Below, piece after piece: positions 60,001 through 64,000 of a DNA stretch of 64,000 nucleotides; within the stretch, counting starts at the first letter, position 1, and each line of letters starts with the position of its first letter. Location of the stretch: assembly GCA_031269795.1 (NCBI GenBank), contig JAISYR010000022.1, positions 13,202-77,201 of the forward strand, given 5' to 3'. The stretch is from Puniceicoccales bacterium (GTDB lineage: Bacteria > Verrucomicrobiota > Verrucomicrobiia > Opitutales > JAIRKQ01). Made by a program: the position numbers.

Positions 60001-63000
60001 TCGACGTGTTTATGTATGACCATACAATAAAAAATTTGCCACTTAAAAATGAACATTTTCATTTTTTCAAAACTGGAATTTGTGGTACATGCGGAGAAGA
60101 TGCAAATTTAAAAACACTTGAAGAAATTTTAACCGAAAATGGTCATATGACCAACCAAAACCTTGTCTTAAAAATTGATGTCGAAGGGGCAGAATGGGAA
60201 GCTTTTAGCAAGACACCAAGCGAAATTATAGAAAATTTTTCACAAATAGCAGTTGAATTTCATGGGGTAGATGACGTTTACGATGAAAATAAATTCAATA
60301 CCATCCTAAGCGTGCTTAAAAAATTAAACGTAACACATCAGGTTGTACATGTTCACGCCAATAACTATGGTACTTTTAACGTCATTGGCGGGGTTCCATT
60401 GCCTAACACATTCGAGGTCACCTATTTGCGCAGAAGAGATAATCAATTTGTTCCTAGCTATAAATGTTATCCAGTGCAGGACTTGGACATGCCATGCAAG
60501 CCCGATACAGCAGAGCTTTTTCTGGGTTTTTACGGCATGTTCGCGAATTGATAAAATTAACCTAAACTAGGTCATAGCAAAATTATTGGAATCTAAGTAC
60601 ATCATAATTGACTATTAAGTCTTTTCGATTACGGTTTCCAAAAAATATGATTATTAAACCTAAAACACGCGGTTTCATATCCCTAACAGCTCATCCCAAG
60701 GGATGTGAAGAGAATGTAAGGCAACAAATTGCATTCGCAGAAAAATACACCATTCCCAATACTCCCAAAAATATCCTGGTCATCGGGGCTTCTACGGGCT
60801 ATGGGTTAGCAAGCAGAATCACACTAGCATTCGGCGGAAGAGCAAATACCATAGGGGTGTTCTTCGAACGCCCATCCGAAAAAGACAAACCTGCCTCCGC
60901 CGGCTGGTATAACTCGATCGCCTTCAAAAAATTTGCCGAACAGGGTGGTCTGTTGGCAGAAAATATAAACGGTGATGCTTTTTCATCCAATGTAAAAGAG
61001 CAAGTAATAGATTTGATAAGGCAAAAATTTGGACAGATAGACTGCGTGGTGTACAGCCTGGCTTCCCCAAAAAGAACAGATCCTTTTACCGGTGAAGTTT
61101 TTAAATCAGTCCTTAAGCCCATAGGAGAACCCTTTATAGGGAAAACCGTCAACGTTGACAAAGATGAAGTCTACGAGGTAACCATCGAACCGGCTACGGC
61201 AGAGGAAGTACGGGCAACGGAAAAAGTAATGGGGGGCGAGGATTGGGAATTGTGGATACAGGCTCTGCATAATGAAAAGTTATTGGCAAATGGCATCAAA
61301 ACCATCGCCTATTCATACATCGGTCCCGAAATCACTTGGCCAATCTACACAAATGGAACAATAGGGGCCGCCAAGGATGATTTAATGCGGGCAATGGAAG
61401 CAATAAAGTTTTTGTTGGAGGATATCGGAGGACAGGCAATTATTTCCGTCAATAAAGCCGTTGTAACCCAGGCTAGCGCTGCCATACCTGTGGTCCCTTT
61501 GTATATTTCAATCCTTTTTAAAGTTATGAAAGAAAAGGGAATTCACGAAGGGTGCATAGAGCAAATGGTTAGACTGTTTAGTGAAAGATTATATGGACCA
61601 CATGCTGGCAAATCCTTGGATGAACATGGTCGCATTCGATTGGATGACTTTGAACTAAACCGGGATGTCCAAGATGCCGTCGTCAAAATTTGGCCGAAAA
61701 TTTCCACGGAAAATTTGAAAGAGTTTTCGGACATGGATGGATATAAACAAGAATTTCTAAAACTTTTTGGTTTTGGGCTAGCTTCCATAGATTACGATGA
61801 AGATGTCGAAATTTAATTAAATCTTTTCAAAAAAATGTTGACAATGATTTGCTAAAAAATTATGATTTTTCCCCTAAACGGAAAGGAAACGATATGCCAG
61901 GTAATTATGCTCAAGATGGTGGTCACATACATGCTCCTAGTACAGGTACAACATCGGTAACCCTCAGTAGAATTTATAATCTTTTGGCTAGTTGCGTTGC
62001 AACATATGAATCAGAGCTAAATTGCGCCATTCATAAGCTGGAAAATGAGGACGATATCGGCCAGGAACAGATGCTTGCACTGCAGGCTAAGATTCAAGCG
62101 TGGGGAAATTTGACTTCCACGTGTACTGGTCTGTTGCGTGCCGTTGGAGACGCCATAAAGACAACATCGCAAAATGTTCGATAATTGGTTTTGTGGATGG
62201 ACAATGCACCAAGTGACACACCAAAAAGCGATCTGCCTGTTTCTACGGAGGTGGTTCGATGTTTAATGGATATCGGCTATGTTGCCGTTGGTCGCGGGTT
62301 ACAGTCGCAGGCTACGAATATTTTTAATGGGATAATCGCCGCACGGCCAAGTAGTGAATTGCCGTTGATAGGTCTTGCTGTTTGTAAACTCAATTTTGGA
62401 TACGTCGTCGATGCAGCTAAAATTCTTGCCGAGCAGGCATTGAGGTTAAACCCGAACAGTGGAATAGCTAAATGTTTCCTAGCAGTTGCTATCAAAGCCT
62501 TAGGAAATGAACAGGAAGCATGTGACCTGATGCACCAGATATGCGACGATACCACTGATCCAGCCGCTAAGGCCATGGCAGAATCATTTCTCATTGGCAA
62601 AGATGTTTCACCGTAGGCTACAGGGGATCAGATTTCATAGAGAGATTGGTGGGGAGAGACTAAAAAAGATGACGGAATGGCTCTGATTTAAAGCCAATAG
62701 GGAGATTTCTTCACGAAATTCGTAAAGGTGGAGCACTGCCATTGACCAATTTAGATGATGCCGAGCGTCCTAAAAAATAGGTAATACCTGTGCTATTAGG
62801 AACGGCGAAACGCAATATTTTTTGTAAAAAATTTCCCCACAAAAATGCGAAAAATAAAAAGCCTATCGGCTGGTTTTAGGTTTTTAAAAAAATGGCTTCT
62901 GGTAGAAGCAAGAAAAAAACTTGCAAATTTTCAAAAATCTTTACGTTTTGTGTGCATATGTATAGTACAATGAAAACAAAACTATTCTCCTTTGCGTTGT

Positions 63001-64000
63001 TGATGGTAGTATTAATTTTTCCCATAGGCGCACATTGTGAAGTCGATACGGAAATATCCCCGCTAGAAAATAAAATACTTGTTACCATCGATGGAGGATC
63101 AGCTACGAAAAAATCTCCCATTGCCCAGGCGCTCGCTAAAAAATTCAATCTAGTCTATGTTGAGACAGGCGCATTGTATCGCACGATAGCACATGTGCTT
63201 ATCCAGGCTGGAATTATGCCGGAACCTAAAAATGAAAATACAATAGATGAATTTTTGAGGGATGCCAAATGCGAATGTTTTTTGGAAGGCTGGAAAACTA
63301 AATTTAGCATAAATGGAGTCTGTTTGACCACCAAAGAATTGAGGGCAGAGGATATCAATGCCAAAGTGGCAAAATACTCATCATTATTTAAGTCCATTAG
63401 TGATTTTTGCATAAAACATATTCGAGAAGTCATAAATTTGGAAGAGATCCAGAAGTTCAATGGCATAGTTGCCGAAGGGCGGACATGTGGCACATATATA
63501 TTTCCAGAAGCCGATGTGAAATTTTGGTTCATAGCCACCGATTCTGCTAGGATAGACTTCAGGCTTAACGTGGAAAAAGAAGTCGATAACCCCCTTGAAC
63601 GTGATAAACTAGACTTTTCTCGTACGTTTTATCCGGTGGCAAAACCTGAATGTGCCATAGAAGTGTGGACATCTTCCCGATCAATGGAAGAAAATATCGC
63701 ACTAGCTTCCGCATTCGTAGAGCAAAAATTAGACGTTAAAAATCACAGTAGGTTACAAAAACCAGAAGTTTTGTTGCCGTAGCATCGCCAAACCCCAATC
63801 GCTAATTTGAAAAATAGGAAAAAACACGGCTGCCCTCCGATTCCTATGCCTTAAAAATGGTACCTAGATTTTTACCCATAAAGGTTGAAGCACTGATGAC
63901 GGTTATTGCTAGAAACGTCATCGCCCAAACACCCAAAGAACATGCCAGGAACGGGCCTTCGCCCAACAAATTAATTAGTTCGTAGATGGCCTTGGTTATG

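What the first reader, a model, noticed from the sequence alone, without database searches (positions are those of the whole stretch)
62970..63782. Cytidylate-kinase homolog with signal peptide and broken P-loop next to the needle locus
The protein is collinear with Cmk over its whole length, but key catalytic features are degenerate. The P-loop GPSGAGKGT is replaced by GGSATKKSP. The RDxxDxxRxxAPL segment is replaced by RDKLDFSRTFYPV. It also carries a ~25-aa N-terminal hydrophobic signal-like extension (MKTKLFSFALLMVVLIFPIGAHC) that a cytoplasmic kinase should not have. This looks like a repurposed pseudo-kinase, or a nucleotide-binding protein that is exported or membrane-anchored. It also raises the question of whether a bona fide cmk exists elsewhere in the genome.
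Basis: partly seen in the sequence, partly recalled or inferred. Interest (0 to 1): 0.55.

Follow-up and report, generated by a model that had tools for sequence, protein, structure and literature searches.

The report
Exported, remodelled cytidylate-kinase homolog
A termite-gut symbiont encodes a conserved copy of the housekeeping enzyme cytidylate kinase that has gained an export signal and lost the residues that read cytosine, so it is probably no longer the ordinary CMP kinase that annotation pipelines call it.

Summary
The ORF at 62970-63782 (+) is a real, full-length homolog of bacterial cytidylate kinase (Cmk). It matches Pfam PF02224 at 99.6 bits, and its AlphaFold2 (AF2) model has pLDDT 90 with solved Cmk structures as best fold matches.

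It belongs to a small, sharply isolated family: about 38 clusters in 20 genomes, almost all termite-gut Puniceicoccales/Opitutales metagenome-assembled genomes (MAGs). The kinase domain is under purifying selection (dN/dS 0.14-0.23).

- The N-terminal signal-like leader is real. It occurs in 30/38 family members and in 0/120 canonical Verrucomicrobial Cmks.
- The P-loop is unusual.

Two details were wrong:
- The P-loop keeps its catalytic Lys-Ser; only the Walker-A glycine has become Lys.
- The RDxxDxxR motif is intact.

The telling changes lie elsewhere. The cytosine-reading residues Arg110 and Asp132 (E. coli numbering), Ser101, the LID residue Arg157 and Asp203 are all replaced, each by a family-conserved residue. 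The phosphate-binding arginines are kept.

The gene fails NCBI's Cmk equivalog cut-off and never sits in the canonical aroA-cmk-plsC context. Its position next to the type III secretion (T3SS) needle genes is not conserved.

Most likely it is a Sec-exported Cmk derivative with changed nucleotide specificity. Whether it still catalyses phosphotransfer, and whether a canonical cmk coexists in these genomes, could not be tested.

The parts
62970..63782 (+). Cmk-like gene, 270 aa. An alternative start at ATG 62958 gives 274 aa; the longest ORF starts at 62892.
   Evidence: ORF and sequence. PF02224 scores 99.6 bits. The AF2 model matches solved Cmk structures. dN/dS of the domain against five relatives is 0.14-0.23.
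62970..63032 (+). Predicted Sec-type signal peptide, MKTK / LFSFALLMVVLIF / PIGA, with a putative signal peptidase I site after Ala21 (IGA|HC).
   Evidence: It has a positive n-region, a 13-aa hydrophobic core, and Pro then small residues at -3 and -1 (sequence). The same architecture occurs in 30/38 family members and 0/120 canonical Verrucomicrobial Cmks. The same heuristic flags 10 of 50 window ORFs; apart from this gene, those identified are envelope or membrane proteins. The segment has low confidence in the AF2 model (residues 1-27 below pLDDT 50). SignalP was not available.
63033..63074 (+). Acidic linker HCEVDTEISPLENK between the leader and strand beta-1. In clade C relatives it is replaced by a Lys-, Ser- and Thr-rich linker that lengthens the pre-domain region by about 30-120 aa.
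   Evidence: Alignment A1; N-terminal listing.
63093..63119 (+). Deviant P-loop GGSATKKSP. The Walker-A glycine is replaced by Lys47; the catalytic Lys48 and Ser49 are kept.
   Evidence: Position 47 is Lys in 37/38 family members and Gly in 120/120 Verrucomicrobial plus 82/82 other canonical Cmks.
63162..63182 (+). ETGALYR: the NMP-site helix start. Tyr70 and Arg71 (E. coli Y40, R41) are kept; E. coli Asp35 is replaced by Glu65.
   Evidence: Roles of R41 and Y40 are taken from PMC3603445.
63399..63410 (+). Ser144 at the position of the cytosine-binding Arg110, and the family-specific Cys147 at the position of Leu113.
   Evidence: This position is Arg in 202/202 canonical Cmks and Ser, Asn, His or Gln in the family. 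Position 147 is Cys in 37/39 family members. In Yersinia Cmk the R110A mutant is inactive (PMC3603445).
63471..63494 (+). AEGRTCGT in place of the canonical EGRD(M/I)G. Arg171 (R131) is kept, Asp132 is replaced by Thr172, and Cys173 is invariant in the family.
   Evidence: In Cmk, D132 hydrogen-bonds the cytosine base (PMC3603445).
63549..63563 (+). LID segment RIDFR. E. coli R157 is replaced by Phe197 and R158 is kept as Arg198. R154 is Arg here but Lys in most of the family.
   Evidence: The short LID itself (11-12 residues between R158 and R181) is shared with all 120 Verrucomicrobial canonical Cmks, so it is not a family novelty.
63600..63623 (+). RDKLDFSR: an intact RDxxDxxR motif (E. coli R181, D182, D185, R188).
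   Evidence: R188 is lost only in clade C relatives.
63666..63668 (+). Trp233 at the position of the canonical Asp203 (the xxIDTS strand end).
   Evidence: This position is Trp in 38/39 family members. It is Asp in 110/120 Verrucomicrobial canonical Cmks (Asn or Glu in the rest) and in 82/82 other canonical Cmks.
61849..62616 (+). Context only: a needle-like ORF (weak PF09392 hit) and a CdsG-like TPR chaperone ORF upstream, separated from the Cmk-like gene by about 340 bp.
   Evidence: both hits are below the curated cut-offs. The adjacency is seen only in the closest relatives, so these are not counted as part of the feature.

Best explanation
This gene encodes a Cmk-derived protein that is exported across the inner membrane. 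Export is predicted to use a Sec-type signal peptide, probably cleaved after Ala21. If the leader is not cleaved, the protein would be tethered by it with the domain facing the periplasm.

The protein descends from the short-LID Cmk typical of Verrucomicrobiota. It is conserved, mostly as one copy per genome, in a low-GC lineage of termite-gut Puniceicoccales/Opitutales. These organisms carry type III secretion genes and are thought to be endosymbionts of gut flagellates.

It keeps the Cmk fold and every residue that handles phosphates and ribose: K18, R41, R92, R131, R158, R181 and D185 (E. coli numbering). It has replaced the residues that read the cytosine base (R110, D132) and S101, as well as one LID arginine (R157), the Walker-A glycine (G17 to Lys) and D203 (to Trp). 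Each replacement is conserved within the family.

I therefore infer that it still binds a nucleoside monophosphate and a phosphate donor, but no longer with Cmk's cytosine specificity. I also infer that it acts outside the cytoplasm, where an intracellular symbiont's periplasm can receive host ATP and nucleotides through outer-membrane pores.

**Shown:** homology, fold, the substitution pattern and its conservation, the leader and its conservation, purifying selection, and the non-canonical genomic context.

**Inferred:** export, loss of CMP specificity, retained nucleotide binding or phosphotransfer, and site of action.
For: **Homology and fold**
- Pfam, PDB profile search, AF2 model and fold search all point to bacterial Cmk.

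**A distinct, isolated family**
- About 38 clusters score 198-587 bits, after which scores drop to 91 bits or less.
- An exhaustive search of 1.84 billion representatives finds only 4 at E <= 1e-30; scores then fall from 198 to 118 bits.
- The family occurs in 21 loci of 20 genomes out of 185,579 species genomes. Eighteen of those 20 are termite-gut MAGs. Their naming matches the MAG set of PMC11257099.

**Origin**
- In a neighbour-joining (NJ) tree, the grouping of the family, clade D and canonical Verrucomicrobial Cmk has 87% bootstrap support.
- The family shares the DGG motif and the short LID with 120/120 Verrucomicrobial Cmks.

**Substitution pattern**
- Established by column-by-column comparison with 202 canonical Cmks, using E. 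coli numbering validated against PDB 1KDO.
- Residue roles come from the Yersinia Cmk study (PMC3603445). R41 and R131 bind phosphate. R110, D132 and S36 hydrogen-bond cytosine. The R110A, R131A and R188A mutants are inactive.

**Selection**
- dN/dS is 0.14-0.23 for the domain.

**Leader**
- Present in 30/38 family members and 0/120 canonical Verrucomicrobial Cmks.
- The heuristic was calibrated on 50 window ORFs.
- No internal standard start codon could give a leaderless protein.
- The charge distribution predicts the N terminus inside and the domain outside (sequence).

**Not the standard cmk**
- TIGR00017 scores 92.7 bits for the window protein and 70-116 for relatives, against a cut-off of 135.55. 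Canonical Verrucomicrobial Cmks score 133-154.
- Canonical cmk has plsC directly downstream in 51/56 loci and aroA directly upstream in 39/57.
- No aroA or plsC homolog occurs in 431 kb of family-bearing DNA.
Against: - No signal-peptide predictor or experiment was available. The export call rests on classical sequence rules.
- A few family members lack the leader: P0010, P0011 and possibly P0018 and P0019. The domain can therefore exist without it.
- I could not show that a canonical cmk coexists in the same genomes. If none does, a housekeeping role becomes more likely.
- A periplasmic ATP-dependent kinase has no well-established precedent. ATP supply from the host is an assumption.
- NCBI annotates these proteins as (d)CMP kinase.
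Confidence: 0.45

Rival explanations
1. It is exported but catalytically dead: a pseudo-kinase. The Cmk fold would serve only as an extracytoplasmic nucleotide-binding or scaffold protein, for example one that captures host nucleotides.
For: - The Walker-A glycine, universal in the 202 canonical Cmks compared, is replaced by Lys.
- LID residue R157 is replaced by Phe, and D203 by Trp.
- R110 is lost, and the R110A mutant of Yersinia Cmk is inactive.
- ATP is not normally available in a periplasm (general knowledge).
Against: - The complete phosphate-handling set (K18, S19, R41, R92, E/D129, R131, R158, R181, D185) is invariant across clades that are only 45-55% identical. That is more than simple binding would be expected to require.
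- The replacement residues are themselves strictly conserved. This points to a new specific function rather than loss of function.
Confidence: 0.25
2. It is simply the organism's housekeeping (d)CMP kinase, as annotated. The hydrophobic N terminus would be a non-exported membrane tether, or irrelevant, and the substitutions would be tolerated drift in a fast-evolving symbiont.
For: - NCBI and JGI name these proteins (d)CMP kinase or cytidylate kinase.
- There is mostly one copy per genome.
- Neighbours are housekeeping genes in clades B and C: a release-factor gene, trxB, thyA, folA and yidC.
- No canonical cmk was found in the window or in 431 kb of related loci.
- A leaderless duplicate exists in one MAG.
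- The putative endosymbiotic Opitutales lineages in this MAG collection have small genomes (PMC11257099), so a second copy may well be absent.
Against: - R110 and D132, which bind cytosine and are invariant in 202/202 canonical Cmks, are gone. The Yersinia R110A mutant is inactive.
- The protein fails the TIGR00017 cut-off that canonical Verrucomicrobial Cmks meet or nearly meet.
- The leader is conserved in three clades with its charge bias pointing outward, and no leaderless isoform is possible.
- The gene is never in the aroA-cmk-plsC context.
- Substitutions are fixed and conserved, not scattered as drift would give (dN/dS about 0.2).
Confidence: 0.2
3. It is a component, chaperone-linked factor or secreted substrate of the type III secretion system encoded nearby (the 'needle locus').
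For: - The gene lies about 340 bp downstream of the needle-like and CdsG-like ORFs in the window and in its closest relatives.
- The window carries many T3SS genes.
Against: - The adjacency is absent in clades B and C.
- A hydrophobic Sec-type leader is not what T3SS substrates carry (general knowledge).
- T3SS genes are scattered all over this window, so proximity to one of them is easy to get by chance.
Confidence: 0.03
4. It is a decaying remnant of cmk in a reduced symbiont genome.
For: Several canonical catalytic or specificity residues are lost. The host organism has a low-GC, probably reduced genome.
Against: - The reading frame is intact in the family-bearing genomes recovered (21 loci, one of them only a partial match at a contig end).
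- dN/dS is 0.14-0.23.
- The replacement residues are invariant or nearly so.
- The AF2 model is confident.
Confidence: 0.02

Closest known systems
Bacterial cytidylate kinase Cmk (EC 2.7.4.25; PF02224, TIGR00017; e.g. E. coli 1KDO/2CMK, Yersinia 4E22)
   Same: Same fold, including the bacterial 'long' NMP-binding insert, and collinear over the whole domain. K18, R41, R92, R131, R158, R181, D182, D185 and the FPxAD.KF strand are shared.
   Different: - It has an N-terminal export-type leader.
- The Walker-A Gly is replaced by Lys.
- Cytosine contacts R110 and D132, plus S101, are replaced.
- R157 is replaced by Phe and D203 by Trp.
- It scores below the TIGR00017 cut-off.
- It lies outside the aroA-cmk-plsC context.
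Canonical Cmk of Verrucomicrobiota (Cerasicoccus, Coraliomargarita, Opitutaceae; 'DGGAASGKSS' type, often fused to or following AroA)
   Same: This is the nearest canonical group (30-36% identity, up to 133 bits). It shares the DGG start of the P-loop and the short LID of 11-12 residues. In the NJ tree it groups with the family at 87% bootstrap.
   Different: The canonical group has no leader (0/120). It keeps G17, R110, D132, R157 and D203, and it sits in the tyrA-aroA-cmk-plsC context.
'Clade D': N-terminally anchored Cmk-like proteins P0122, P0310, P0311 and P0312, probably from microbial eukaryotes (one comes from the Dysnectes brevis transcriptome in EukProt)
   Same: It also has an N-terminal hydrophobic segment. 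It shares S14, P20 ('KSP'), E35, A101, loss of D132 (to Val) and Cys133 with the family.
   Different: - It keeps G17, R110, R157 and R188.
- Its contigs look eukaryotic: low gene density, with TORTIFOLIA1-like and DUF4795-like neighbours, both below Pfam cut-offs.
- Its sister relation to the family has 91% NJ bootstrap with all columns, but only 43% once the 19 signature sites are removed. Common origin and convergence cannot yet be told apart.
Repurposed or secreted P-loop small-molecule kinases (secreted Ndk and adenylate kinase of pathogens; zeta toxins and AvrRxo1). Recalled from memory, not tested here.
   Same: The concept is the same: a nucleotide-kinase fold used outside the producer's cytoplasm, or on a new nucleotide-like substrate.
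   Different: These belong to different families. They have no Sec leader, or use other secretion routes. No sequence relationship beyond the P-loop kinase fold is implied.
Type I versus type II thymidylate kinases (recalled from memory)
   Same: They offer a possible analogy. A catalytic positive charge sits either in the LID or in the P-loop. Here a LID Arg is lost (R157 to Phe) while a Lys is gained in the P-loop (G17 to Lys).
   Different: The position within the P-loop differs.

Membership tests
(d)CMP kinase, Cmk (PF02224 / TIGR00017) | Cmk fold with the bacterial NMP-domain insert | tested here: met
   AF2 model pLDDT 90. Foldseek top hits are 1kdo, 4die, 2h92 and 3akc, with TM-score (target-normalised) 0.82-0.89.
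(d)CMP kinase, Cmk (PF02224 / TIGR00017) | Pfam PF02224 above the gathering score | tested here: met
   99.6 bits against a cut-off of 26.
(d)CMP kinase, Cmk (PF02224 / TIGR00017) | NCBIfam equivalog TIGR00017 at or above its curated cut-off (135.55 bits) | tested here: not met
   The window protein scores 92.7 bits and relatives 70.2-115.7. Canonical Verrucomicrobial Cmks score 154.3, 149.9 and 133.3.
(d)CMP kinase, Cmk (PF02224 / TIGR00017) | Walker A motif GxxxxGK[ST] | tested here: not met
   The motif reads GGSATKKS. The Gly before the Lys is replaced by Lys (37/38 family members against Gly in 202/202 canonical). Lys-Ser is retained.
(d)CMP kinase, Cmk (PF02224 / TIGR00017) | Cytosine-recognising residues Ser/Thr36, Arg110, Asp132, Arg188 | tested here: not met
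   Thr66 and Arg218 are present. Arg110 is replaced by Ser144 and Asp132 by Thr172; both are invariant in 202 canonical Cmks. Residue roles and the inactivity of R110A come from PMC3603445.
(d)CMP kinase, Cmk (PF02224 / TIGR00017) | NMP phosphate and ribose ligands Arg41, Arg131, Arg181, Asp185 | tested here: met
   R71, R171, R211 and D215 are invariant in the family.
(d)CMP kinase, Cmk (PF02224 / TIGR00017) | Cytoplasmic protein without a targeting sequence | tested here: not met
   The leader has a positive n-region, a 13-aa hydrophobic core and an AXA-like site. It is present in 30/38 family members and 0/120 canonical. This rests on heuristics only.
(d)CMP kinase, Cmk (PF02224 / TIGR00017) | Lineage-typical gene context (aroA-cmk-plsC in Verrucomicrobiota) | tested here: not met
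   Canonical loci have plsC downstream in 51/56 and aroA upstream in 39/57. Neither gene appears in 431 kb of family-bearing loci.
(d)CMP kinase, Cmk (PF02224 / TIGR00017) | ATP:CMP phosphotransferase activity | not testable with these tools
   This needs an enzyme assay or complementation.
Sec-dependent signal peptide (signal peptidase I type) | Positive n-region, hydrophobic core of about 10-15 residues, small residues at -3 and -1 | tested here: met
   The leader reads MKTK / LFSFALLMVVLIF / PIGA|HC. Comparable sites occur in most relatives, e.g. TYA|H, VCA|E, LQA|S, TRA|D. SignalP was not available.
Sec-dependent signal peptide (signal peptidase I type) | Actual export and cleavage | not testable with these tools
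   This needs reporter fusions or N-terminal proteomics.
Bacterial lipoprotein (signal peptidase II) | Lipobox [LVI][ASTVI][GAS]C | tested here: not met
   Cys23 is preceded by His (GAHC). Relatives have H or Y at -1 or lack the Cys.
Type III secretion needle-locus gene or T3SS substrate | Conserved linkage with T3SS genes across relatives | tested here: not met
   Linkage is seen only in clade A (L002, L003). Clades B and C have other neighbours.
Pseudokinase (catalytically dead kinase fold) | Loss of residues indispensable for phosphoryl transfer | tested here: inconclusive
   The P-loop Lys and most phosphate-binding Arg residues are kept, but the Walker-A Gly and LID R157 are lost. There is no activity data.

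The most novel reading that the evidence does not exclude
The gene would encode a symbiont-exported, Cmk-derived nucleotide kinase whose base pocket has been re-specified away from cytosine. Arg110/Asp132 are replaced by Ser/Thr, which reverses the hydrogen-bond donor and acceptor pattern and would suit uracil-type bases.

It would work in the periplasm or in the host compartment of a flagellate endosymbiont, converting host pyrimidine nucleotides for uptake alongside the NTT-type nucleotide transporters reported for these Opitutales.

The family may also have been exchanged between protists and their verrucomicrobial symbionts. The protist 'clade D' shares the leader and several signature residues. 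Clade C carries Lys-rich linkers that resemble nuclear localisation signals, in a lineage that includes intranuclear symbionts.
Probability: 0.15. Interest if true: 0.75.

Novelty: new variant of a known kind. Interest (0 to 1): 0.45.

Why it matters
Cmk is one of the most uniform housekeeping enzymes in bacteria, yet here a whole symbiont lineage carries a version that is targeted out of the cytoplasm and has lost the cytosine-reading residues.

- **If it is the only Cmk homolog in these genomes:** metabolic reconstructions that count it as CMP kinase, as NCBI and JGI do, are probably wrong. These endosymbionts would then recycle CMP by another route or rely on the host.
- **If a canonical copy coexists:** this would be a clean case of a core nucleotide enzyme duplicated and redeployed at the host-symbiont interface. 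That is relevant to how intracellular bacteria with nucleotide transporters exploit host nucleotide pools.

The natural Gly-to-Lys Walker-A variant, kept under purifying selection, is also of interest for P-loop enzymology.

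Tried and rejected
**1. Second cmk in the window.** tblastn with eight Cmk queries found only this gene.

**2. Canonical cmk in 28 related loci.** None was found.

**3. Coexistence of a canonical cmk in the same MAGs.**
- I identified the canonical Verrucomicrobial type and looked up candidates.
- P0335 is from a termite metagenome but sits on a 59% GC contig of a different organism.
- P0344, P0121 and P0327 come from non-termite samples.
- Cluster look-ups gave no accession numbers or organism names.
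- The question stays open.

**4. The window's own record.** The 274-aa product is not on record.

**5. Needle-locus link.** Rejected by comparing contexts.

**6. Promoter and terminator scan around the gene.** Nothing exceeded the shuffled expectation.

**7. plsC synteny for clade D.** The acyltransferases next to P0311 are not orthologs of the plsC that follows canonical cmk.

**8. 'LID deletion' as a family novelty.** Rejected. All Verrucomicrobial canonical Cmks have the short LID.

**9. Possible Cys147-Cys173 disulfide and the geometry of Lys47.** Not testable, because model coordinates are not exposed.

**10. AlphaFold-database fold search.** The library was not installed.

**11. Literature.** No paper on exported Cmk-like proteins was found. 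A Burkholderia paper lists ordinary Cmk only as a computational T3SS-effector false-positive type of hit.

Full report
**What is in the sequence**

Window 62970-63782 (+) is an uninterrupted ORF of 270 codons.
- Pfam's Cytidylate_kin model matches residues 38-244 end to end at 99.6 bits, against a gathering score of 26.
- A profile of the protein and its relatives finds only Cmk among solved structures, at 1e-46 to 1e-49.
- An AlphaFold2 (AF2) model built on 121 sequences has pLDDT 90 and pTM 0.84. Only residues 1-27 have low confidence.
- The model superposes on E. coli, Mycobacterium, Staphylococcus and Thermus Cmk with target-normalised TM-scores of 0.82-0.89.
- No other Cmk homolog lies in the 64 kb window.

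**It is a family, not an accident**

A word-indexed search returned about 38 clusters at 45-97% identity (198-587 bits). Scores then drop abruptly to ordinary Cmks at 91 bits or less.

An exhaustive HMMER pass over 1.84 billion cluster representatives found four at E <= 1e-30, all from this family. The next best scored 118 bits.

In 185,579 species genomes, the family-specific peptides DGGSATKKS and AF[VI]EQKxDxK occur in 21 loci of 20 genomes. Eighteen of these genomes are 'Puniceicoccales bacterium' MAGs with termite-sample names:
- Neotermes cubanus Ncb351
- Neotermes castaneus Nc350
- Kalotermes flavicollis Kf353
- Procryptotermes leewardensis Pcl387
- samples coded Cc175, Cd354, Gsp477, Gx481 and Po218, whose host species I did not look up

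The host names come from the supplement of PMC11257099.

That paper describes a large clade of low-GC, small-genome (<1.5 Mb) Opitutales in lower termites. It treats them as putative endosymbionts of gut flagellates, related to the intranuclear Candidatus Nucleococcus, and reports that they carry NTT nucleotide transporters. That the family-bearing MAGs belong to exactly those families is my inference from naming, GC content (33-43%) and gene content.

The window itself (41.6% GC) carries a scattered type III secretion system, a CesT-like chaperone and paralogous ORFs with no Pfam match. This fits a host-associated organism.

**The gene is under selection**

I compared the window gene with five relatives at about 80% protein identity.
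- The kinase domain has dN/dS 0.14-0.23.
- The leader has dN/dS 0.13-0.88 and stays hydrophobic and in frame.

This excludes a decaying gene and shows that the leader is translated.

**Which residues changed**

I aligned three sets:
- 39 family members
- 120 canonical Verrucomicrobial Cmks (Cerasicoccus, Coraliomargarita, Opitutaceae and others)
- 82 Cmks from other phyla

Positions are numbered on E. coli Cmk. I checked that sequence as identical to PDB 1KDO.

Kept in every family member:

| E. coli residue | Window residue |
|---|---|
| D11, G12 | D41, G42 |
| K18 | K48 |
| G19 (Ser in most Cmks) | S49 |
| R41 | R71 |
| R92 | R125 |
| D129 (Glu in most Cmks), G130, R131 | E169, G170, R171 |
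| FPxAD.KF strand | 178-185 |
| R158 | R198 |
| R181, D182, D185 | R211, D212, D215 |

Y40 (Y70) is Tyr or Phe throughout the family.

Replaced by family-conserved residues at positions that are invariant or nearly so in all 202 canonical sequences:

| E. coli position | Family residue |
|---|---|
| G17 | Lys (37/38) |
| R110 | Ser, Asn, His or Gln |
| D132 | Thr |
| residue 133 | Cys (39/39) |
| L113 | Cys (37/39) |
| S101 | Ala |
| D35 | Glu |
| R157 | Phe |
| R154 | Lys (still Arg in the window protein) |
| D203 | Trp |
| V212 | Asn |

According to the Yersinia Cmk structure-function study (PMC3603445):
- R41 and R131 bind the phosphate.
- R110, D132 and S36 hydrogen-bond the cytosine base, and Y40 stacks on it.
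- R188 and D185 contact the nucleotide.
- The R110A, R131A and R188A mutants are inactive.

The family has therefore kept the phosphate and ribose machinery and discarded two of the base-reading residues.

- The P-loop keeps its Lys-Ser. Only the Walker-A glycine is lost.
- RDKLDFSR is an intact RDxxDxxR motif. R188 is lost only in one subclade.

The short LID is not a novelty. All 120 Verrucomicrobial Cmks have it.

**The leader**

The N terminus reads MKTK / LFSFALLMVVLIF / PIGA|HCEVD. It has two lysines, a 13-residue hydrophobic core, a proline, and small residues at -3 and -1. After the site the sequence is acidic.
- Equivalent leaders occur in 30 of 38 family members across all three subclades, although the sequence itself is not conserved.
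- None of the 120 canonical Verrucomicrobial Cmks has residues of this kind ahead of strand beta-1.
- The same simple rule applied to 50 ORFs of the window flags ten. Apart from this gene, those I could identify are envelope or membrane proteins: the SctJ lipoprotein, the T3SS secretin, a solute-binding lipoprotein, an MFS transporter, an ExbB-like protein, two autotransporter-type barrels and a membrane-anchored methyltransferase. No recognisable cytoplasmic enzyme is flagged.
- There is no lipobox and no twin-arginine motif.
- No ATG, GTG or TTG lies in frame between residue 12 and residue 69, so a leaderless full-length protein cannot be made.
- Relatives L009 and L010 lack the Met at 62970 and must start at the equivalent of ATG 62958. 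This adds four residues and changes nothing else.
- The charge balance across the hydrophobic segment (+2 before, -3 after) predicts that the domain ends up outside the inner membrane, whether or not the leader is cleaved.

This is an inference from classical rules. No predictor or experiment was available.

**Exceptions**

- One MAG (Kf353_bin47) has a tandem pair: a leader-bearing copy and an upstream copy whose leader has degenerated and which has lost R188.
- P0011 also lacks a leader.
- P0018 and P0019 may be truncated or have miscalled starts.

**Context**

In the window and its closest relatives the gene follows fabV, a needle-like ORF and a CdsG-like ORF. In clade B it lies between a release-factor gene and trxB. 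In clade C it lies next to yidC. The needle adjacency is therefore incidental.

The canonical Verrucomicrobial cmk has a very stable neighbourhood.
- plsC lies directly downstream in 51 of 56 loci, and aroA directly upstream in 39 of 57.
- Individual examples appear, and AroA-Cmk fusions are frequent.
- No aroA or plsC homolog occurs anywhere in the 431 kb of family-bearing DNA I collected.

The gene is thus not the positional ortholog of cmk.

It also fails NCBI's equivalog cut-off for Cmk. The window protein scores 92.7 bits and relatives 70-116, against 135.55. Canonical Verrucomicrobial proteins score 133-154.

**Origin**

Neighbour-joining (NJ) trees group the family with the Verrucomicrobial Cmk type at 87% bootstrap.

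The exhaustive search also turned up a second small group, 'clade D' (P0122, P0310, P0311, P0312).
- It has an N-terminal hydrophobic anchor.
- It shares several of the family's signature residues: S14, the KSP end of the P-loop, E35, A101, loss of D132 and Cys133.
- It still has G17, R110, R157 and R188.
- One member comes from the transcriptome of the free-living flagellate Dysnectes brevis (EukProt). Another sits on a 62% GC contig with low gene density and weak matches to eukaryote-only families.
- Clade D is therefore probably eukaryotic.
- Its sister relation to the termite family has 91% bootstrap with all columns, but only 43% when the 19 signature sites are removed.

Common descent, which would imply protist-symbiont gene transfer, and convergence both remain possible.

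**Interpretation**

The best-supported reading (about 0.45) is a Sec-exported derivative of Cmk. It would still bind a nucleoside monophosphate and a phosphate donor, but no longer with cytosine specificity. It would act in the periplasm or beyond.

For an intracellular symbiont the periplasm can be supplied with host nucleotides, which would make an extracytoplasmic kinase feasible. This last step is an assumption.

The replacement of an Arg/Asp pair by Ser/Thr at the base pocket reverses the hydrogen-bond donor and acceptor pattern and would suit uracil-type bases. The gain of a P-loop Lys together with the loss of a LID Arg recalls the type I versus type II thymidylate kinase dichotomy. Both points are speculation.

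The main rivals are:
- an exported but inactive nucleotide-binding protein (0.25)
- the ordinary housekeeping Cmk with an odd N terminus (0.2)

The second rival gains weight if no canonical cmk exists in these genomes. A T3SS role (0.03) and gene decay (0.02) are effectively excluded.

**What could not be done**

I could not establish whether a canonical cmk coexists in the family-bearing MAGs. I could not read model coordinates, and the AlphaFold-database fold library was unavailable.

**Verdict**

- It is a new, uncharacterised variant of a very well-known enzyme family. It is of moderate interest, and of higher interest if export and a changed substrate are confirmed.

Noticed in passing
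window 136-5428 (-), 44724-47077 (+), 61849-62616 (+): Type III secretion genes are scattered in at least three places, as in Chlamydiae: sctP/HpaP-like, sctO, the sctN ATPase, sctL, sctK and the sctJ lipoprotein; then a CesT-like chaperone and a secretin with a SPI-1 N0 domain; then needle-like and CdsG-like ORFs.
   Followed up: partly
window 54651-56789 (+): A second secretin-family ORF, only 22% identical to the T3SS secretin. It may belong to a type II or type IV pilus-like system, which could matter for onward secretion of periplasmic proteins.
   Followed up: no
window 28606-32146 (-), and 32327-33586 (-): Three tandem paralogs (57-68% identical, 346-356 aa) and a fourth neighbouring ORF have no Pfam match at all. 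They are candidates for a lineage-specific effector family.
   Followed up: partly
window 18711-20867 (-): A single 718-aa ORF combines Mur ligase (MurC-like) and MurB domains, i.e. a MurC-MurB fusion. It lies next to murG.
   Followed up: no
window 9857-12197 (-): Two tandem paralogs (48% identical) have signal-like N termini and weak autotransporter beta-domain matches.
   Followed up: no
window 58588-60551 (+): Two tandem FkbM-type methyltransferases have N-terminal transmembrane segments. They lie between comM and fabV.
   Followed up: no
L005/L013 (Kf353_bin47) 428-1123 and 1178-1954: The Cmk-like gene is tandemly duplicated. The upstream copy has lost the leader and Arg188 and scores lowest against TIGR00017 (70 bits). 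The downstream copy is intact with its leader.
   Followed up: partly
P0025-P0036 (loci L004, L021-L027): Clade C members carry a Lys-, Ser- and Thr-rich linker between the leader and the domain, which lengthens the pre-domain region by about 30-120 aa. It is partly repetitive: P0032 has three copies of SKKHSKGKSAKKSQ.KEASVPLSP.DT. The linker resembles nuclear localisation signals or histone tails.
   Followed up: no
P0122, P0310 (L037), P0311 (L029), P0312: This is a separate small clade of N-terminally anchored Cmk-like proteins that appears to be encoded by microbial eukaryotes (Dysnectes brevis transcriptome; eukaryote-like contigs). It shares several signature residues with the termite-symbiont family, which may reflect inter-domain gene transfer.
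   Followed up: partly
L031, L034, L035, L038-L117: Verrucomicrobia-type cmk sits in a strongly conserved tyrA-aroA-cmk-plsC arrangement and is often fused to aroA. This gives a useful positional test for true cmk in this phylum.
   Followed up: yes
window 51190-52587 (+): A pyrimidine-nucleoside phosphorylase gene lies about 10 kb upstream of the Cmk-like gene. It is the only other pyrimidine-salvage gene noticed in the window.
   Followed up: no
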